NCBI GenBank assembly: GCA_024654445.1
Contig: JANLHP010000013.1
Coordinates: 26,528 to 90,527, forward strand
DNA length: 64,000 nt
Direction: 5' to 3'
Source of the DNA: Candidatus Curtissbacteria bacterium
GTDB taxonomy: Bacteria; Patescibacteriota; Microgenomatia; Curtissbacterales; GWA2-41-24
Position 1 is the first letter of the stretch; every line of letters starts with the position of its first letter. A program made the position numbers and the translations under genes. Under the pieces are notes generated by a model. The model did not search any database. It was not told the origin of the DNA and worked only from the letters and a program-made list of their open reading frames with translations. Shown piece after piece: positions 3,059-54,749 of this stretch.

Positions 3059-3137
3059 GTCATTGCGAGAAGCGGAGCGACGAAGCAATCTAATTAGAGT
3101 TTGAGATTGCCACGCTCATATATTCGCTCGCAATGAC
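3059..3137. repeat. structured palindromic intergenic element (copy R1): outer 11-bp inverted repeat GTCATTGCGAG/CTCGCAATGAC with a nested 7-bp inverted repeat GCAATCT/AGATTGC
   Basis: Perfect inverted repeats read directly from the sequence. Related copies at 50951-51097 (inside ychF), 39099-39167 and 12711-12896. Confidence 0.6.
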
Positions 3138-12710: not shown

Positions 12711-12896
12711 CTTGTCATTCCAGCGAGAGCTGGAATCCACTTCGAGTAAGGGGGAATCAAAATATCAAGGTCTTCAGGTCGGCGAGTAATTCATTTATGG
12801 ATTCTGAATCTAGTTCAGAATGACGGAGGTCCCTCGAGGAAACCTCGGGTTCCTCTTAAAGTTCTAGTAGGGTGGAAAGGTCGAGGTGGCTCGACA
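12711..12896. repeat. cluster of hairpin-forming repeat modules sharing submotifs with the R1/R3 family
   Basis: Stems ATTCCAGC/GCTGGAAT, TTCTGAA/TTCAGAA, palindrome CCTCGAGG, GTCGAG/CTCGAC. Shared motifs CTTGTCATTC and CTTCGAG. Confidence 0.45.
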
Positions 12897-15997: not shown

Positions 15998-17408
15998 GCT
16001 TTATAATTTTCTCCCCAAAAAAGTAGAAGAGTTTAATCCGATCAATGCCAAGAGCGTCGGGATGTATACCTGTGGCCCGACGGTTTACGACTATGTCCAC
16101 ATTGGCAATTGGCGTACCTTTGTTTTTGAAGACGTTTTAAAGCGTGTTTTGAGATTTAATGATTTTGATGTGACGCATGTTATGAATATAACCGACATCG
16201 ACGACAAGATAATTAAAAAAGCCGCTGATGAAGGAGTCGACTATAAGAAGATAACAGAAAAATTCGAAGAAGCGTTTTTTGATGATTTTGAAAAATTAAA
16301 TATAGAATCCGAAGAGGATGCACCGAGAGAAGTTCGTAGAGAAACAAATATGTTCGAACAGTATCCTAGGGCAACCGAGAGTATTGACGCAATGATAGTC
16401 CTGATCCAAAAACTTCTCGAAAAAGGTGTTGCCTACAAAGGGGACGATGGAATTTATTTTTCGGTTGAAAAATTTCCAAATTACGGTAAACTTTCTGGGC
16501 TTTCTAAAGGTAATTTGAAAAAGGGCGCGAGGGTTAACGCTGATTTATACGATAAAGAAAGCTGGGCGGATTTCGCGCTTTGGAAGTTCCCTTCTTCGCC
16601 AAAGGCTTCGGGAGGGCAAGTAAAAAAGGAGCCCAGTTGGCCGGCGCCATTTGGAGAAGGTAGACCGGGTTGGCATATCGAGTGTTCTGCTATGAGCATG
16701 AAAGCTCTTGGCGAAACGTTTGATATCCATGCCGGTGGTGTAGATTTGCTGTTTCCTCACCACGAAAACGAAATTGCGCAAAGTGAGGCGGCGACCGGGA
16801 AGAAATTCGTTAATTATTGGATGGAGGGTGAGCATCTACTTGTTGAGGGAGAAAAGATGTCTAAAAGCTTGAACAATATTTATACGCTTGCCGATATTTC
16901 TGAAAAAGGATTTGATACTCTCGCGCTCCGCTATTTGTTTCTGACGGCACATTACAGGTCTAAACTTAACTTTACTTGGGAAAGTCTACAGGGTGCGGGC
17001 AATGCGCTGAACAATTTGCGGGAGGAAGTCGCCAGTTGGAATGAGGTCGAAAAGGAGGCGTGGGAAGGTTTACCTGATTTTGAAAAAGATTTTAAAAACG
17101 CGATCAACAACGATTTGGACATGCCGCGAGCAGTTGCTGTGATGTGGGATATGGTTAAAAGCGATAATCCAACTGTTCGAAAGCACGAATCAATTTTGGT
17201 GATGGATAAGGTTTTGGGGCTTGGGCTGGAGAGAATTAAAAAAGCAGAATTGCCAGAAGGCGCGAAAGAACTAATTGAAAAAAGAGAGGCAGTGAGGAAG
17301 ACGGGAGATTTTGAAGAGTCGGATAATATGAGGGGAGAGTTAGCAAAGATGGGGGTTGAGGTTGAGGATACACCGCAGGGGCCAAAGTGGAAGGTCAAAC
17401 AGCGATAA
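15981..17408 (+). CDS. cysS: cysteinyl-tRNA synthetase
   Basis: Class I HIGH-type motif HIGNWRTF and KMSKS. Zinc-binding Cys residues present. Confidence 0.9.
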
Positions 17409-17479
17409 CTTCACAGGACGAGACCACTCTATTACTCTAGAGTATTAGAGTGATTTATACTGCATGATAGTTCATAGAA

Positions 17480-18151
17480 ATGATTGATGTCGTTAAAGTT
17501 AAAAATCGAAATGAGGGGCAAGACAAGGCGCATGATCTTTTAAAAAGGTTAGTCGATGATAAAACTCTGCTGGCCCTTAGCGGGGGAACTTCTCCTGATT
17601 ATAAACGAATGATTGTTAAGCCAGGCGATATTAGACCTGGGGCAATTTGCGTTGTAGACGATCGGTTTGGAAAACCATTCCATAAAGACAGCACGGAGTT
17701 TCTTCTAAAAGAATCAGGCGTCAAAGATTGTGCAGACGACTATTGCATGGAAGCTCACAAGATTTTAAAGGGGGAAGATCTAATAACAACCGGGAAAATT
17801 TATGCGGAAGAAATCGAAGAATTATTTGGAAGGTTTAGTAAAAGGGTCGGTCTAATGGGGGTTGGGACAAATTTACATACTGGTGGAATTTTTCCTTACA
17901 GTTTGGCTGCAAAATCTCCGGAGCTTGCCGTTGGGGAAACAGTTGATGATAAATACAAGAAGAGGGTTTCAATAACCCTAAAAGCATTGGGGCAATTTAC
18001 TGGCTTTATAATTTTGATGTTTGGAAAAGAAAAAAAAGATGCAATTAAAACAATGCTAGATGAAGCGGAAAATGATATGCAAAAGTATCCTGCGATTTTT
18101 TACAGAAAATCGAAAATCAAATCTTACTTAATTACAGACCAAAACGTATAA
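17480..18151 (+). CDS. pgl: 6-phosphogluconolactonase
   Basis: LALSGGTSP motif (SGGSTP-type sugar-phosphate isomerase/lactonase fold). Adjacent to zwf and gnd. Confidence 0.7.
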   Translation: MIDVVKVKNRNEGQDKAHDLLKRLVDDKTLLALSGGTSPDYKRMIVKPGDIRPGAICVVDDRFGKPFHKDSTEFLLKESGVKDCADDYCMEAHKILKGEDLITTGKIYAEEIEELFGRFSKRVGLMGVGTNLHTGGIFPYSLAAKSPELAVGETVDDKYKKRVSITLKALGQFTGFIILMFGKEKKDAIKTMLDEAENDMQKYPAIFYRKSKIKSYLITDQNV

Positions 18152-35588: not shown

Positions 35589-35857
35589 GACTTCCGTTCT
35601 TTCCATCTTCTTTAGGCTCCACAGGCTTTTGTTGAGGACCACAAGAACTGTTACTAAGTTCTTTAGACCCGCAGATCTACTGAGTAGATCGAGGATTGCA
35701 AGAATTTGTTACCAGGTTCTTACAATCTTTTGATGATTTCTTAATGTATGTTTCGTATCATACGTGTCAATGTCCCATTACATTCGGCCAGTATCTACAC
35801 ACGACAGAAGTCCCCCATAAGACTCAGCCACCCGAGGTATTAATAAAAAAACATTAC

Positions 35858-39098: not shown

Positions 39099-39167
39099 GA
39101 GATCCTTGTCATTCAGTGCCATGCGGTCCTCGTCCTTCGGACTGCGGACCTAAGGGGTCTCACTTGG
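39099..39167. repeat. structured repeat (copy R3): CAAGG-TGAGAT-CCTTG hairpin plus a GTCC-TTCG-GGAC (UUCG tetraloop) module
   Basis: Shares CAGTGCCATRCGGTCCTCGTCCYTCG with the ychF-internal copy. Contains the reverse complement of ATCTCACCTTG. Confidence 0.5.
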
Positions 39168-48993: not shown

Positions 48994-49283
48994 GTGATAG
49001 ATAGTTGGTGGACATTAGTAATCATTATAGACATTACTTATGAACGATATTGGAAGGACGCTTATTATTTTTGGATTTTTAATCTCATAGGAATTTTGGT
49101 GAGTGTTTCAGGCAAAATCCCATTAATTGGCCGATTGCCTGGAGACATTATTATAAAAGGGAAGGTTTTACATTTTATTTTCCGTTAACAACCTCGCTAA
49201 TCCTCAGTATAGTTTGTCCCTCGTTCTTAGATTTTTTAATAGATAGATTACGTTCAGCATATGTTCGCAACACGCAGATATGA
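48994..49283 (+). pseudogene. DUF2905-like small membrane protein with an apparent frameshift at the A-run near 49160-49166
   Basis: Frame 0 gives ...GKIPLIGRLPGDIIIK then stops. The +2 frame continues with (E)GFTFYFPLTTSLILSIV..., matching the second conserved half of the family. Confidence 0.5.
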
Positions 49284-49780
49284 GTCGCGAATTTTTGGAA
49301 GTGATACGAGACGTAGAAGCACTTGCAAGTGAACCTCAAGGTTTTGGCTTTGAAGGGGAATGGAGTAGCCGTTTGCAGCCGGTTCTGGTGCAAAATCAGC
49401 CGGGTGAGAGGCTACACAGCCATAAAGAAAGGACAATGGCCATTCCTCGCAGGCCAACGCGCGGCCGGATTTATCATGCCGGTTCAGGCAACAGCGGCCA
49501 TTTTTGGAGAAAAAAAGTGGGAACTTTTTGCGATTGATACTGGATACCAACTCGTTGCAGTTCTTGCGATGGGTGTTGTTCTAGCTATCTTATGGCAGGT
49601 GAAGAGGGACATTGGTTTGCAAATGCTGATCCTAAAACACCGGGAAAAACAGGAGATCGAGCTTTCTTTATTGATGAAACAGGTGTGATCCGCGCGACAG
49701 AAGGCGGAGAAGCAACTCCTGGCAGTAAACCCCTCGAGAACTAAGTATCTTCTTTTTGTTAAACTATTTCTTATGAATTT

Positions 49781-50254
49781 ATGAACAAACAACTTAAGCA
49801 CGAGGTTACGCCTTTGGGAATGCTAAATAATGCAAAGGTTTGGTACGTTTTGTACAGACAGAACATTTATTTGGGGACCCATCACAAAATAATAGCTATA
49901 TACTGCTTGTTGATTAGCTTTGAAATGTTTCTCAAGTCTTACCTAATTTATTTAAATAAAATGGAGTATTCCTGCGATTCAAATTTAGAGAAGCTAGGAC
50001 ACAAATTTGGAAATATTGTTAAGGCTATTAAAAAAGAAAAAGATGCTAGATTATCACCTCGGATAGACAGTCTTATTAAGAAGTATGATCTTATGTCTAT
50101 AGATACAAATAATCTTAGATATCCAAGAAAAGGTGACGAATTTTTAATCCATGCGGGATATCTTAGCCCACATAATGAATTTGACGAGTTGTTAGATGCT
50201 ATTGGAGGAGAGGTTAGTGGAGGTATTGTTGATAAATTTTACGATGAAACTTAA
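49781..50254 (+). CDS. HEPN-domain protein (orphan, with no adjacent nucleotidyltransferase partner)
   Basis: Helix with FEMFLKSYL (cf. HEPN AxExxLKAxL) and the C-terminal motif NLRYPRKGDEF (HEPN-type SRYPD). 157 aa. Confidence 0.55.
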   Translation: MNKQLKHEVTPLGMLNNAKVWYVLYRQNIYLGTHHKIIAIYCLLISFEMFLKSYLIYLNKMEYSCDSNLEKLGHKFGNIVKAIKKEKDARLSPRIDSLIKKYDLMSIDTNNLRYPRKGDEFLIHAGYLSPHNEFDELLDAIGGEVSGGIVDKFYDET

Positions 50255-50287: not shown

Positions 50288-51496
50288 ATGAACCTATCTG
50301 TCGGTATTGTTGGACTACCCAACGTGGGGAAAAGCACGCTTTTTAATGCGCTTTTAAAGAAGCAGGTGGCTGACGCGCAGAATTATCCGTTTACGACGAT
50401 TGAACCAAACGTCGGCGTTGTTGAAGTTCCAGACCCACGTCTTTTCAAACTTGCAGACGTGGTAAAGAGCAGTGAGGGTTTAGCTCCGAATTTTAAGATA
50501 ATTCCAGCGGTTGTTAAGTTTGTAGATATTGCTGGTCTTGTTAAAGGTGCAGCAAGCGGCGAAGGATTAGGGAATCAATTTTTGTCGCATATTCGTGAGG
50601 TTGACGCGATTGTTTTTGTGTTGAGGGATTTTAGTGGAGAAGTTATTCGGGTGGGAAGTGAGAATCCCCAGGAAGATCTTGAGGTTCTAAAAACTGAACT
50701 TTTGATTAAGGATCTTGAGACTATTGATAAGCGAATTGATAGTTTAGGTAGGGAGTTGAAACCTCTTGGGCACCAAGATCCTAAGCATCAAGTTTTGGTG
50801 ACGATGCAAAAAGCGAAACAACTTGCTGAAGAGGGGAAGTGGCTGGGAGAAAATATGGACGAGGAAGAACTGGCGAAAATCCGTGAATTGCAGCTGCTTT
50901 CGACGAAGAAAACAATTGTTGTATTAAACACAGATGAGGGTAATCTCTCTGTTATTGCGAGTGAATCGAAGCAATCTCCAGATTCTGGATATACAGTGCC
51001 ATACGGTCCTCGTCCCTCGAGGACTCAGGACTCCGGGCCTAAAAGCCAGGATGACAAAAAAGAGATTGCCGCGGGCTCTTCGAGCCCTCGCAATGACAAT
51101 TATGTAAGGATAAGCGCGAAACTAGAACAGGAACTTTCGGACCTTGATGAGGAAGAGCAGGGAGAATACCTAAAAGAGCTTGGGATTGGCGAACCCGGAT
51201 TAAATCGTTTAATTAAAAATGCGTATGAAACTTTGGGGCTTATTACTTTTTTTACTGCCGGGCCAAAAGAAGTGCATGCGTGGACGACAAATAAAGGCGT
51301 ACTTGCACCGCAAGCTGCAGGAGTAATTCATACGGATTTTGAAAAAGGATTTATTGCTGCAGAAGTTATAGATTGGGAAACTTTAGTTGATGTGGGTGGA
51401 TGGCAGGCGGCAAAAGGGAAGGGACAAGTTAAGACTATCGGAAAGACAGAAGAAGTAAAGGATGGAATGGTTGTGGAGTTCAGGTTCAGTAACTAA
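50288..51496 (+). CDS. ychF: ribosome-binding ATPase YchF (Obg-family GTPase) carrying a 49-aa internal insertion
   Basis: G1 [17 protein letters not shown] domain at the C-terminus. 402 aa, versus about 363 for canonical YchF. Confidence 0.9.
50951..51097. repeat. composite structured repeat inserted in frame (147 bp) within ychF: R1-type outer/inner inverted repeats enclosing an R3-type module
   Basis: GTTATTGCGAG...GCAATCT...[CAGTGCCATACGGTCCTCGTCCCTCGAGGAC...]...AGATTGC...CTCGCAATGAC. Compare copy R1 at 3059-3137 and copy R3 at 39099-39167. Confidence 0.6.
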
Positions 51497-51876
51497 TATG
51501 CAATATTGCCGCTGTTGAATACACGGAGAGCTTTACCGTCTCGATTTTGGAAACGGGTAACGTAGGAGCCGTCTTCTTGGCGTTGGTAAGCAAACGAAGT
51601 TACATTGAGAAAAGGTCTTAATTCCCCTGTGCGAGAATTTTTGCCGGAAACTGTAAGCCTGATAGTACCTGTCTCTTCTTGAGAAGGTGGTTTGGAAACT
51701 TCGAAAGTGTAGAGTCCTTTGCCTGTAAAAAGATACCTTCCTTCCAACATTTTTCCTTGCCATGCGGGTAAGAGTCGTTGGAGTTCTGCCGGGTCGAACT
51801 CGCTAAGGTCCATCGTGGTAGATTTTTTATCCTCTGTGGTGGTAGCGCCCTTTATTTCTGCTTGTTCCGTTGTCAT
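51493..51876 (-). CDS. hypothetical protein
   Basis: 127-aa ORF with no recognisable motif. Confidence 0.4.
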   Translation of the reverse strand: MTTEQAEIKGATTTEDKKSTTMDLSEFDPAELQRLLPAWQGKMLEGRYLFTGKGLYTFEVSKPPSQEETGTIRLTVSGKNSRTGELRPFLNVTSFAYQRQEDGSYVTRFQNRDGKALRVFNSGNIAY

Positions 51877-53371: not shown

Positions 53372-54628
53372 ATGCCCATAATAACACCAGGCAACATTCT
53401 TCCCAACCAAAATAAAGGTTCGGGTATTATTTCCTTTATCGCTCAGTTTGCAGTCGTCGCAATTATCTTTTTTGGAATCGGTTTTATTGCCGGCCAAAAG
53501 AAGATAGAAATCACCAACAGAAACTTCGTTCCTCATATAACTGTCCAAAATAAATTACCGCCCAAAGAACAAACTGTAGATTTCTCTCTTTTCTGGCAAG
53601 TCTTTGAAACTTTACCGGAAACATATCTCGATAAGAGCGCAATAGACGCGCAAAAAATGGTAAATGGCGCAATCGCCGGAATGGTAAGGTCTCTTGGTGA
53701 TCCTTACACTGTCTTTTTGGATCCAAAACAAAATGAGGCAATAAGAAGTGAGTTGTCTGGAACTTACGAGGGTGTTGGAATTCAACTTGGGTTTAATAAA
53801 GAAAAAAGGCTTGCGGTTATTGCTCCTCTTTCGCAAACTCCTGCAGAGCGTGCTGGGGTTTTACCGCAAGATTTGATTTTGAAAATTGGGGACAGAGAGA
53901 CGTTTGATGTGACGCTTCCGGAGGCTGTCGATTTAATTCGCGGACCCGCTGGAACGAAGATTAAGCTTCAAATTGCAAGAGAAGGGCAGACTGAACCTAT
54001 CGAGCTTGAGATGCAAAGAGAAAAAATCACAGTCAAAAGTGTAGAAGTTAATTTTAGAGACTTTGAAGGTAAAAAAGTTGCAATTCTTAAAGTATCACGG
54101 TTTGGTGAAACGACAGACAGCGAGTGGGACGAAGCGGTAAATAGGGTACAACTCGAAGGTGCAAAGGCTGTTGTTGTTGACATGAGAAATAACCCAGGCG
54201 GATTGCTTTCGTCTTCAGTACATCTTGCTTCGGAATTTGTGGGCGGCGTAATTGTTAAACAGCAATTTTCGGATGGAAGTGTAAGAAACTTGGACGAGGA
54301 TCATAACGGGGAACTTTTGAATATTCCTCTGGCGGTTCTAGTAAATGGTGGTTCGGCTTCGGCTGCCGAAATTTTTGCGGGAGCAATTCAAGACAAAAAT
54401 AGAGGGCAAATTGTAGGGGAGAAGACATTCGGCAAGGGAACAGTCCAGGACGCTTTAGAACTGCCTGGGAATGCTGGACTTCACGTTACCATCGCAAAGT
54501 GGCTTACACCAAAAGGAAATTCGATCCACAATGAAGGCATTACCCCGGATGTTACAATAGAGCCACCTCAGGGCCAAATGGGCCAAAGAGACGACCCCCA
54601 ACTTAATAAGGCACTCGAGGAATTGTAG
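53372..54628 (+). CDS. ctpA: carboxyl-terminal processing protease (S41 family) with PDZ domain
   Basis: N-terminal TM, PDZ domain, catalytic region GGSASAAEIFAGAIQD. Confidence 0.85.
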   Translation: MPIITPGNILPNQNKGSGIISFIAQFAVVAIIFFGIGFIAGQKKIEITNRNFVPHITVQNKLPPKEQTVDFSLFWQVFETLPETYLDKSAIDAQKMVNGAIAGMVRSLGDPYTVFLDPKQNEAIRSELSGTYEGVGIQLGFNKEKRLAVIAPLSQTPAERAGVLPQDLILKIGDRETFDVTLPEAVDLIRGPAGTKIKLQIAREGQTEPIELEMQREKITVKSVEVNFRDFEGKKVAILKVSRFGETTDSEWDEAVNRVQLEGAKAVVVDMRNNPGGLLSSSVHLASEFVGGVIVKQQFSDGSVRNLDEDHNGELLNIPLAVLVNGGSASAAEIFAGAIQDKNRGQIVGEKTFGKGTVQDALELPGNAGLHVTIAKWLTPKGNSIHNEGITPDVTIEPPQGQMGQRDDPQLNKALEEL

Positions 54629-54749
54629 AATAAAGTGCCTTGCGATAAGCAGAGCTTGCGATCCTCATTCTGCAATAGCAGAATTGCGGTTCTAAGTTCC
54701 ACACTATCGTGTGTATAACTATCTAAAGGCTCTTGAAGTTTTAAAATAA

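What the first reader, a model, noticed from the sequence alone, without database searches (positions are those of the whole stretch)
50951..51097. Composite repeat element inserted in frame (147 bp = 49 codons) inside the essential GTPase gene ychF
Segment 50951-51097 carries the R1 outer inverted repeat (GTTATTGCGAG / CTCGCAATGAC, 1 mismatch) and inner inverted repeat (GCAATCT / AGATTGC). Between the inner stems sits an R3-type module (CAGTGCCATACGGTCCTCGTCCCTCGAGGAC..., compare 39107-39150). Its length is exactly a multiple of 3. It accounts for the roughly 40-aa excess of this YchF (402 aa) over canonical YchF, as a low-complexity Ser/Pro/Gly/Asp loop ([41 protein letters not shown]) in the helical domain between the G domain and the TGS domain. 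An intergenic-type structured repeat embedded in a conserved CDS in a translatable form is unusual. It resembles MITE or REP exaptation, or an RNA structure within the mRNA.
Basis: partly seen in the sequence, partly recalled or inferred. Interest (0 to 1): 0.75.

Follow-up and report, generated by a model that had tools for sequence, protein, structure and literature searches.

The report
Nested palindromic repeats translated inside ychF
A 147-base stack of three small hairpin-forming "selfish" DNA repeats sits in frame inside the essential ychF gene of an uncultured Curtissbacteria (CPR) bacterium, adding a floppy 49-residue loop; this is the Rickettsia "palindromic element" phenomenon in a new bacterial lineage, so it is a nice example, not a new principle.

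Summary
Window 50951-51097 (147 nt, 49 codons, no stop) lies in a genuine ychF (50288-51496, 402 aa). It carries both arms of repeat R1, whose intact intergenic copy is at 3059-3137. An R3 module sits inside it; other R3 copies are at 39118-39154, 35661-35705 and 54645-54695.

The window's YchF is identical to a protein annotated as Candidatus Curtissbacteria. Its nearest orthologues (359-366 aa) lack the segment. Other Curtissbacteria YchFs carry a different repeat (R2), or only half of R1, in the same loop.

R1 occurs on 60 IMG/VR contigs and R3 on 46 groundwater metagenome contigs. Both are mostly intergenic, but some copies lie in frame in real genes.

R1 and R2 have the architecture of CGTC/TGTC-tagged REP dimers (Di Nocera 2013), the superfamily that includes Rickettsia RPE-4 and RPE-6.

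AlphaFold2 predicts the insert as a disordered loop in the G domain just after the G4 motif, not in the helical domain.

Best reading: a tolerated selfish-repeat insertion in a permissive, recurrently hit loop. I found no evidence of function. It is a new member of a known kind. The CPR host and the three-layer nesting are the new parts.

The parts
50288..51496 (+). Host gene ychF (redox-regulated ATPase YchF), 402 aa.
   Evidence: TIGR00092 scores 369 bits against a cut-off of 279. Pfam finds MMR_HSR1 and YchF-GTPase_C. The best PDB sequence match is E. coli YchF 8kie at E 9e-88. The AF2 model has TM 0.87 to 8kie. The protein is 100% identical to a Candidatus Curtissbacteria MAG protein.
50951..51097 (+). 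Composite 147-nt in-frame insert, coding V222-D270.
   Evidence: Absent from the nearest orthologues. GC 53% against 43% for the rest of the gene. Folds as one nested hairpin at -58.6 kcal/mol, z -5.6. pLDDT is below 50 for residues 225-269.
50951..50978 (+). R1 left unit: GTTATTGCGAG-TGAATCGAA-GCAATCTC. The head tag is degenerate (TGTT instead of C/TGTC).
   Evidence: The external R1 profile hits 50951-50986 at E 2e-4. Same architecture as 3059-3090 and as 59 IMG/VR copies.
51061..51097 (+). R1 right unit: AGAGATTGC-CGC-[GGGCTC TTC GAGCCC]-TCGCAATGAC. It has a small GC hairpin in its loop (51073-51087). The next base, A, completes a TGTC tag on the other strand.
   Evidence: The external R1 profile hits 51057-51098 at E 7e-5. 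The predicted fold shows the side hairpin.
50980..50989 (+). 5' half-stem of an R2-type CGTC REP unit (AGATTCTGGA).
   Evidence: Together with 51043-51057 it matches 25 of 26 bases of AGATTCTGGACAAGCCAGAATGACAA, the right unit of R2 in L083, L086 and L087. It pairs with 51046-51052 in the predicted fold.
51043..51057 (+). 3' half-stem and head of the R2-type unit (AAGCCAGGATGACAA).
   Evidence: CCAGGATGAC at 51046-51055, one mismatch to the R2 end.
50990..51044 (+). R3 module (TATACAGTGCCATA-CGGTCCTCGTCCCTCGAGGACTCAGGACTCCGGGCCTAAAA) sitting in the loop of the R2 unit.
   Evidence: The external R3 profile gives E 5.5e-11. It is 83% identical over 40 nt to 39100-39139. The same 5' variant, TATACAGTGCCATG, occurs in metagenome locus L185.
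3059..3137 (.). Intact intergenic R1 copy (79 bp), CGTC-tagged, lying between two + strand genes.
   Evidence: E 1e-14.
12714..12824 (.). Canonical CGTC-type REP dimer, between convergent genes. Unit 1 is TGTC-ATTCCAGC-GAGA-GCTGGAAT-CCA. Unit 2, inverted, is CGTC-ATTCTGAA-CTAGA-TTCAGAAT-CCA.
39100..39165 (+). Intergenic R3 copy inside a GTGAGATCC/GGGGTCTCAC hairpin, between convergent genes.
   Evidence: E 5.6e-8.
35661..35705 (-). Weak R3 variant with a swapped inner hairpin (GATCTAC/GTAGATC).
   Evidence: (E 0.0018).
54645..54695 (+). Weak R3 variant with a swapped inner hairpin (ATTCTGC/GCAGAAT), starting 17 nt after the stop of ORF 53372-54628.
   Evidence: (E 0.021).

Best explanation
The 147-nt segment is a stack of three small, non-coding, hairpin-forming repeat families that landed in ychF and is tolerated there.

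Anatomy:
- The outer layer, R1, is an inverted dimer of CGTC/TGTC-tagged REP-like units. This is a REPIN/RPE-like palindrome.
- The R1 spacer holds a single R2-type REP unit.
- The loop of that unit holds an R3 module.

Why it can persist:
- The total length is a multiple of three, and phase 0 of these elements is open (V-I-A-S ... K-Q-S ... E-I-A ... P-R-N-D). The gene therefore stays intact.
- The insert is most likely translated into a disordered Ser/Pro/Gly/Asp-rich surface loop. The loop lies between two beta-strands of the G domain, four residues after the G4 motif.
- This loop is naturally variable in length in Curtissbacteria.
- Only insertions in such permissive places, in an open phase, survive selection in an essential gene.

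Shown:
- repeat-family membership of each layer
- absence of the segment from the nearest orthologues
- recurrent hits of the same loop by different elements
- in-frame copies of the same families in other real genes
- predicted disorder of the insert.

Inferred:
- the mobility mechanism (no transposase identified, no target-site duplication)
- actual translation of the insert
- neutrality of the insertion.
For: Host gene and position of the extra segment:
- The host is a real YchF.
- The extra segment maps between query residues 218 and about 272.
- The nearest orthologues, P0002-P0005, are 75-77% identical over aligned columns and 359-366 aa long. They have a 12-residue loop there, for example NSDEGDLRKPVPVVGGVRI.

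The R1 family is real:
- The window holds an intergenic copy.
- IMG/VR holds 59 full copies on 60 contigs. They are 64-112 bp long and have the same four-block architecture.
- 49 of 54 distinct copies carry [T/C]GTC...GAC[A/G] tags.
- Profile E-values for both ychF arms are significant.

The R3 family is real:
- It occurs on 46 metagenome contigs.
- It has a conserved two-stem hairpin, with compensatory changes at 5 of 11 pairs.

In-frame copies in other real genes:
- R1 in the prfA-type release-factor gene of L082: 111 bp, VIAS..KQS..EIAAS..TRND.
- R1 in a phage portal ORF.
- R3 as KQSLRSSSFxELRTAGLK inside Fic, TatD, aldo/keto reductase, S1, Fpg and MGMT genes.
- R3 in another Curtissbacteria ychF at a different site.

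The same YchF loop is hit repeatedly:
- It carries R2 in P0013 and P0029, and separately in the distant P0025. It carries an R1 right half in P0007.
- R2 is 88% identical between L086 and L087. The flanking ychF DNA is only 64-69% identical, and third codon positions about 50%. The elements are therefore younger than the genes, or are constrained.

Structure and composition:
- AF2 gives pLDDT below 50 for residues 225-269 within an otherwise confident YchF fold (pTM 0.79; TM 0.87 to 8kie).
- Three of the six frames of the insert are open.
- The GC and folding-energy outlier status of the segment marks it as foreign to the gene.

Literature precedent:
- Intragenic CGTC REPs, including RPE-4 and RPE-6, encode 20-30 aa as dimers and 43-82 aa as clusters (PMC3733652).
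- RPEs of about 150 bp lie in frame in Rickettsia genes (PMC10969869).
Against: - There is no exact empty-site allele. The nearest orthologue is only about 77% identical, and about 6 native loop residues are missing, so the event was not a clean insertion or was followed by a deletion.
- Copy number in this genome is low: two R1 copies in 64 kb.
- No transposase was found and there is no target-site duplication, so mobility is inferred from distribution only.
- Translation of the insert is not demonstrated.
- The window's protein is a singleton from a single MAG contig. I could not check the reads.
- The strong sequence conservation of the element arms could also reflect a function.
Confidence: 0.8

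Rival explanations
1. Exapted element. The insert has acquired a function. It could act as a new surface loop of YchF, for example modulating ribosome or partner binding next to the nucleotide-specificity motif. Or the -58.6 kcal/mol hairpin in the mRNA could slow or regulate translation or mRNA decay.
For: The arms are almost perfectly preserved: 10/11 and 8/8 pairs. The elements are far better conserved than synonymous sites of the host gene. The insertion lies four residues after the G4 motif. The same loop carries repeat-derived inserts in several lineages.
Against: The inserts in that loop belong to different families and code for unrelated peptides: VIAS..PRND, VILGSE..FWTSQND, EIASSQAPRND. 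R3 is read in different frames in the window and in P0055. Most Curtissbacteria YchFs, about 33 of 61, keep the short 12-residue loop. The peptide is predicted to be disordered and low-complexity. Conservation of the arms is a property of the whole family, including intergenic copies. It is not specific to ychF.
Confidence: 0.1
2. Intervening sequence. The hairpin is removed after transcription, or bypassed by the ribosome, so that the mature protein is a normal-length YchF.
For: The segment is a very stable, self-contained hairpin whose ends pair with each other. CPR rRNA genes are known to carry intervening sequences (own knowledge, not tested here).
Against: No intron or ribozyme family matches, even at E up to 10. 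All intragenic copies examined are multiples of three without stops in the host frame: 147, 111, 66, 63 and 102 nt for R1 and R2, and the R3 cases. An excised element would not need this. Cut-and-rejoin of bacterial mRNA at a plain hairpin has no known machinery.
Confidence: 0.04
3. Ancient native YchF loop. The segment is an old lineage-specific loop that only resembles the repeats by chance, or the repeats derive from it.
For: HMMER aligns the window's KEIAAG to E. coli REIAAKEG. Empty-site orthologues have ..KEPPIAGG.. (ATTGCC) at the same place. A few bases of the right inner repeat could therefore be native, or could have provided microhomology.
Against: Both arms, the R2 unit and R3 each match independently derived external profiles or consensus sequences at the nucleotide level. 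The nearest relatives lack the segment. Composition and folding energy are outliers within the gene. R1 and R3 occur in unrelated contigs and genes.
Confidence: 0.02
4. Assembly artefact. The MAG contig is chimeric at repeat copies, and the real ychF lacks the insert.
For: The protein is a singleton seen on one contig. Its gene could not be retrieved from the contig index. Repeats are classic sites of misassembly.
Against: Both flanks belong to the same gene, in the same frame, and continue the YchF alignment without loss except for the loop. Analogous in-frame inserts occur in independent assemblies from ENA, NCBI and Logan. A chimera would not give an exact multiple of three with nested symmetry.
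Confidence: 0.03

Closest known systems
CGTC-tagged REP super-family (Di Nocera, De Gregorio & Rocco 2013, PMC3733652), which includes Rickettsia RPE-4/RPE-6 and Neisseria dRS3
   Same: - Terminal CGTC or TGTC tag.
- Stems that start with A-T.
- Units paired as inverted dimers with variable spacers.
- Preference for positions between convergent or co-directional genes.
- Occasional intragenic, in-frame copies that encode 20-30 aa, or 43-82 aa for clusters.
- No dedicated transposase known.
- Peptides ending in ..RND, as in R. conorii DSRFCRND.
- The window's 12714-12824 dimer and the R2 right unit fit the published geometry (7-8 bp stem, 4-5 nt loop).
   Different: - R1 units have only a 5-bp intra-unit stem (ATTGC/GCAAT) and long loops of 7-26 nt that often hold an extra GC hairpin. 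The strongest pairing is between the two units.
- The host phylum (CPR/Patescibacteria) is not among the phyla surveyed in 2013.
- The R1 core ATTGC/GCAAT does not occur in the main text of that paper. The figures with the family consensus sequences are not held. R1's full terminal words brought up no paper on bacterial repeats in the text search.
Rickettsia palindromic elements, especially RPE-1 (Ogata et al. 2000 Science; Ogata et al. 2002 Genome Res; summarised in PMC10969869)
   Same: - A palindromic element of about 100-150 bp inserted in frame in unrelated housekeeping genes.
- It adds a peptide of about 45-50 aa at a place compatible with the protein fold.
- The host has a small, reduced genome.
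   Different: - Different sequence family and a different host phylum.
- Here the insert is a three-family nest, not one element.
- Copy number per genome appears much lower.
- Sequence homology to the RPE consensus sequences could not be tested, because no RPE sequences are available in the tools.
REPINs, that is REP doublets forming hairpins (Bertels & Rainey 2011, PMC3116915)
   Same: Two inverted REP units plus a spacer fold into one long hairpin. The element is non-autonomous and dispersed.
   Different: REPINs are GTAG-type and are tied to a RAYT transposase gene. No RAYT or IS200-like gene was found in about 190 kb of Curtissbacteria DNA. That is not a whole genome.
Bacterial MITEs with intragenic in-frame copies (ERIC/RU elements, Delihas 2007 PMC2759123; Coxiella QMITEs PMC5896051; Anabaena MITEs)
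   Same: Small size, terminal inverted repeats, no coding capacity of its own, and occasional in-frame fusions with host ORFs.
   Different: No consistent target-site duplication among 52 R1 copies. The flanks often continue the inverted symmetry instead. No parent IS with the same ends was identified.

Membership tests
CGTC-tagged REP super-family (Di Nocera 2013) | Unpaired terminal CGTC tag (often TGTC or CCTC) at the head of each unit. | tested here: met
   49 of 54 distinct external R1 copies have [T/C] before GTC and [A/G] after GAC. Window 3058 reads CGTC. The ychF right end reads TGTC on the other strand. The ychF left end is degenerate (TGTT). R2 reads CGTC/TGTC in L086 and L087.
CGTC-tagged REP super-family (Di Nocera 2013) | Stem of 8-9 bp that begins with A-T at positions 1 and 2, and a loop of 4-5 nt. 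| tested here: inconclusive
   The A-T start is met by all units: ATTGC.., ATTCTGG.., ATTCCAGC... The geometry is met by 12714-12736 (8 bp, 4 nt), by 12801-12824 (8 bp, 5 nt) and by the R2 right unit (7 bp, 5 nt). It is not met by R1 units, which have a 5-bp stem and 7-26 nt loops.
CGTC-tagged REP super-family (Di Nocera 2013) | Units mostly organised as inverted dimers with a spacer. | tested here: met
   All 59 external R1 copies were selected as inverted dimers. The window copies at 3059-3137 and in ychF, and R2 in L083, L086 and L087, are also inverted dimers. P0007 carries a single unit.
CGTC-tagged REP super-family (Di Nocera 2013) | Dispersed multi-copy family, mainly intergenic. | tested here: met
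   R1 is on 60 IMG/VR contigs, with up to 7 matches per contig. 51 of 59 copies lie outside long open frames. Within this window there are only two copies.
Rickettsia palindromic elements (RPE) | A palindromic repeat of 100-150 bp inserted in frame in ORFs, leaving the host protein intact. | tested here: met
   The insert is 147 nt, in frame, and folds as a nested hairpin. The YchF domains on both sides are intact and confidently modelled.
Rickettsia palindromic elements (RPE) | Sequence homology to one of the RPE-1 to RPE-10 consensus sequences; genus Rickettsia. | not testable with these tools
   No RPE consensus sequences are available here. The host is Curtissbacteria. Only the shared CGTC-type tag and the ..RND peptide ending link it to RPE-6/CGTC-1.
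REPIN | Associated RAYT (REP-associated tyrosine transposase) in the genome. | tested here: inconclusive
The whole genome was not available.
MITE | Terminal inverted repeats flanked by a target-site duplication. | tested here: not met
   Terminal inverted repeats are present. There is no consistent direct repeat among 52 copies. A small excess of 2-nt matches (8 observed, 1.7 expected) has no consistent motif. Many flanks extend the inverted symmetry.
Intein or self-splicing intron | Recognisable splicing domains or ribozyme structure. | tested here: not met
   Pfam finds only YchF domains. Rfam finds nothing credible at E up to 10. 49 aa or 147 nt is too small for either (established knowledge).

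The most novel reading that the evidence does not exclude
CPR/Patescibacteria genomes carry a so far undescribed set of small structured repeats (R1, R2, R3 and others such as the FAKASxGQAG-coding element). These repeats would:
- insert preferentially at the apex of existing hairpins, giving nested palindromes
- repeatedly colonise the same permissive loops of essential genes
- be moved by a mechanism that is neither RAYT- nor classical IS-dependent.

They would then be a major source of the lineage-specific loop insertions seen in CPR core proteins.
Probability: 0.3. Interest if true: 0.65.

Novelty: new member of a known kind. Interest (0 to 1): 0.42.

Why it matters
[quoted passage not shown] There it hits translation-associated and repair genes: ychF, prfA, S1, fpg, ogt and tatD.
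- Annotators and structural modellers of CPR proteins should expect repeat-derived, disordered inserts. Peptide signatures are VIAS..KQS..EIA..RND, VILGSE..FWTSQND and LRSSSFDELRTAG. These should not be read as lineage-specific functional domains.
- The nesting pattern and the recurrent use of one YchF loop give a concrete handle on two questions: whether these repeats target hairpin loops, and how CGTC-type REPs, which have no known transposase, move.
- A search of the available literature found no paper linking CPR to REP/RPE-type intragenic repeats. That library is incomplete.

Tried and rejected
Searches that gave nothing useful:
- Protein-level searches with the 51-aa insert peptide found nothing. 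It is too short and low-complexity.
- The look-up of the window's own protein contig failed. No read-level or whole-MAG census was therefore possible.
- R2 and R3 patterns are absent from IMG/VR.
- Rfam has no family for the insert, the 39100 copy or the 49000-49850 region.
- A literal text search for the repeat termini in papers returned only unrelated primer hits.

Ideas considered and rejected:
- Intrinsic terminator inside the gene. The scan flags only a weak 5-bp hairpin at 50936-50949, at a rate expected by chance. The big hairpin is not followed by a T-run.
- Classical MITE. There is no target-site duplication.
- Six of the 8 "in long ORF" R1 copies in IMG/VR lie in ORFs with no Pfam match on GC-rich contigs (62-67% GC). 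They may be spurious frames. Only the two portal ORFs, on contigs of about 50% GC, are convincing.
Full report
**1. The observation**

Window 50288-51496 (+) is a 402-aa ORF.
- It is YchF. TIGR00092 scores 369 bits, Pfam finds MMR_HSR1 and YchF-GTPase_C, and E. coli YchF 8kie matches at E 9e-88.
- It is 100% identical to a protein annotated "Candidatus Curtissbacteria bacterium". The window therefore comes from a CPR/Microgenomates MAG.
- The flagged 147 nt (50951-51097) code V222-D270 in frame.
- The stated inverted repeats are present: outer 10/11 and inner 8/8 complementary.
- The 27-, 31- and 37-nt pieces are unique in the window at up to 3 mismatches. The similarity to other copies is therefore modular, not a simple duplication.

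**2. Is the repeat signature real?**

Yes, for all layers.
- R1 has an intact 79-bp intergenic copy at 3059-3137, with the same four blocks: GTCATTGCGAG .. GCAATCT .. AGATTGC .. CTCGCAATGAC.
- The terminal 11-mer at up to 1 mismatch occurs 5 times against 0.72 expected.
- A pattern for the first three blocks finds 60 IMG/VR contigs and 59 full elements of 64-112 bp.
- A profile built from those external copies hits both ychF arms (E 2e-4 and 7e-5) and the intergenic copy (E 1e-14).
- For R3, 50980-51019 is 83% identical to 39100-39139, and nhmmer gives E 6e-5 to 2e-4.
- A pattern for the R3 core finds 46 groundwater metagenome contigs. A profile built from them hits 50996-51044 at E 5.5e-11 and 39118-39154 at E 5.6e-8. 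It also finds two weaker variants at 35661-35705 (-) and 54645-54695.
- R3 has a conserved two-stem hairpin with compensatory changes at 5 of 11 pairs.
- The insert folds as a single nested hairpin at -58.6 kcal/mol (z -5.6). This is the most stable 147-nt stretch of the whole window.
- Its GC content is 53%, against 43% for the rest of ychF.
- No Rfam family matches.

**3.

Between the R1 arms, AGATTCTGGA (50980-89) and AAGCCAGGATGACAA (51043-57) match 25 of 26 bases of AGATTCTGGACAAGCCAGAATGACAA. That sequence is the right unit of a second element, R2, seen in orthologues. The anatomy is therefore: R1 dimer, then one R2 unit in the R1 spacer, then R3 in the loop of that unit. Relatives show similar apex insertions.
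- L083 has a 36-nt GC hairpin in the loop of the left R2 unit.
- The R1 copy in L082 prfA has GC hairpins in both arm loops.

**4. Is it an insertion?**

The nearest YchFs (P0002-P0005) are 359-366 aa long and 75-77% identical over aligned columns. They have a 12-residue loop between NSDE and VRI.
- The window has 4 + 49 + 2 residues there. This is a net gain of 42-43 aa with about 6 native residues lost.
- Of 61 Curtissbacteria-type YchFs, about 33 keep the short loop.
- The same loop carries R2 in P0013, P0025 and P0029: GTCATTCTGGGGAG..CCAGAATC..GATTCTGGACAAGCCAGAATGAC, 63-102 bp, peptide VILGS..TPES..FWTSQND.
- P0007 carries only an R1 right unit there (EIASSQAPRND).
- On a rough NJ tree, P0025 is far from the P0013/P0029/P0007 group, and the window sits on its own branch. 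Short-loop sequences lie next to each of them. This points to at least three acquisitions in the same loop.
- R2 is 88% identical between L086 and L087. The flanking ychF DNA is 64-69% identical and third codon positions about 50%. The elements are younger than the gene lineages, or are constrained.
- I could not obtain an exact empty-site allele, because no close strain exists in the collections.

**5. Where in the protein?**

AlphaFold2 with a 61-sequence alignment gives pTM 0.79 and a model that matches YchF structures (TM 0.87 to 8kie).
- Residues 225-269 have pLDDT below 50 and no secondary structure.
- They connect strand 208-215, which ends in the G4 motif N-T-D-E, to strand 272-275.
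- This is after the coiled-coil helices 127-181. The insert is thus a disordered loop of the G domain, not of the helical domain.

**6. What kind of element?**

R1 and R2 ends carry CGTC/TGTC tags (49 of 54 external R1 copies).
- Their stems start with A-T.
- The units are inverted dimers with variable spacers.
- There is no consistent target-site duplication. Flanks often extend the inverted symmetry.
- The intergenic copies in the window lie between convergent or co-directional genes.
- This is the description of the CGTC-tagged REP super-family of Di Nocera et al. 2013. That family includes Rickettsia RPE-4 and RPE-6. Its intragenic, in-frame copies code for 20-30 aa as dimers, or 43-82 aa as clusters. 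The authors found no dedicated transposase for it.
- The window also holds a textbook CGTC dimer at 12714-12824.
- R1 departs from the published geometry, with short intra-unit stems and long loops. I therefore file it as a related variant, not a proven member of CGTC-1 to CGTC-4.
- No RAYT or IS200-type gene is present in the window or in 8 Curtissbacteria loci, about 190 kb in all.

**7. Other genes with these elements in frame**

- R1 is in the release-factor gene of L082: 111 bp, VIASIAPPAGRAGKQSNDEIAASPPTSNEVVAGTRND.
- R1 is also in a phage portal ORF (L119) and in a portal/Mu-F ORF (L136).
- The other six "long ORF" R1 cases lie in ORFs with no Pfam match on GC-rich contigs, and may be spurious frames.
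- R3 appears as KQSLRSSSFxELRTAGLK inside Fic, TatD, aldo/keto reductase, S1, Fpg and MGMT genes.
- R3 also lies after residue 148 of another ychF, P0055, where it is read in a different frame from the window copy.
- Curtissbacteria YchFs show at least six insertion sites with repeat-type peptides.

**8. Mechanism and rivals**

The best-supported reading is passive. A selfish, REP/RPE-like palindrome, later or already nested, landed in a loop that tolerates length change. It survives because its length is 3n and its phase is open.
- Three of the insert's six frames have no stop.
- In phase 0 the conserved ends read VIA... and ...RND in either orientation.

I rate this reading at 0.8. The rivals are:
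- exaptation as a protein loop or as an mRNA structure (0.1)
- post-transcriptional removal (0.04)
- misassembly (0.03)
- an ancient native loop (0.02).

The reasons are given under each rival. One detail is open. The window's KEIAAG resembles the native KEPPIAGG of empty-site orthologues and E. coli REIAAKEG. A few bases of the right inner repeat may therefore be native, or may have offered microhomology.

**9. Novelty**

In-frame palindromic repeats are established for Rickettsia and for REPs in several phyla (PMC3733652, PMC10969869). The principle is known.
- The host lineage (CPR), the host gene, the three-family nesting and the recurrent use of one YchF loop are new.
- These are new as far as the searchable literature shows. 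That library is incomplete.

Verdict: a real feature, a new member of a known kind, of moderate interest.

Noticed in passing
window 35661-35705 (-), 39118-39154 (+), 54645-54695 (+); metagenome loci L150-L195: R3 is an oriented, structured repeat family. Its consensus is [TAAGCAAAGCTTG or TATACAGTGCCATG]CGGTCCTCGTCCYTCG-N7-CTCRGGACTGCGGGCCTAAAA. The inner hairpin is swapped wholesale in some copies, which is compensatory. Copies usually sit just after stop codons, between convergent genes, in low-GC (36-46%) groundwater contigs. It may act as a 3'-end or terminator-like RNA element in CPR. No Rfam family matches.
   Followed up: partly
L151, L163, L167, L177, L180, L192 (metagenome contigs): R3 is translated in frame as KQSLRSSSFxELRTAGLK inside Fic, TatD DNase, aldo/keto reductase, S1-domain protein, Fpg/MutM and MGMT genes. 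In each case the Pfam domain match spans the insert.
   Followed up: partly
L082 17707-17817 (inside the release-factor gene, 16975-17994, - strand): A 111-bp R1 copy with GC hairpins in both arm loops lies in frame in the N-terminal part of a PCRF/RF-1 release factor of another Curtissbacteria MAG.
   Followed up: partly
YchF orthologues P0030, P0041, P0087, P0113 (after residue 27); P0055, P0089, P0103, P0110, P0111, P0113 (after residue 69); P0041 (after residue 187); P0087 (after residue 370): Curtissbacteria YchFs carry further repeat-type inserts at other sites. FAKASVGQAG/SAKASAGQAGH comes from a CCGC..GCGG hairpin. EILNQVQDD comes from a canonical TGTC-ATCCTGAA-CTTGA-TTCAGGAT unit. There are also NDKRGW-type segments. 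YchF seems to be a frequent landing place.
   Followed up: partly
window 12825-12860: Directly after the CGTC REP dimer comes another GC hairpin, GGAGGTCCCTCGAGGAAACCTCGGGTTCCTC. It shares GTCCCTCGAGGA with the R3 part of the ychF insert (12829-12840 against 51012-51023).
   Followed up: no
IMG/VR loci L100, L129, L130, L133: Some putative viral contigs carry 3-7 R1 matches each, and the R1 flanks continue the palindrome (atcc..ggat, gcact..agtgc). R1 contigs range from 34 to 68% GC, so the family crosses very different hosts or is carried by phages.
   Followed up: no
window 51493-51876 (-): A 127-aa ORF without a Pfam match lies between ychF and rpsF, overlapping the ychF stop by 4 nt. L081, L085, L087, L148 and L149 have ychF directly followed by rpsF. 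L082 and L086 have other genes there. This intergenic position is therefore also variable.
   Followed up: no
window 49175-49780: The roughly 600 nt upstream of ychF have only overlapping short ORFs on both strands and no Rfam hit. The stretch contains the third most stable 147-nt fold of the window (-53.2 kcal/mol at 49351). One frame ends ...AFFIDETGVIRATEGGEATPGSKPLEN, which looks like a gene remnant.
   Followed up: no
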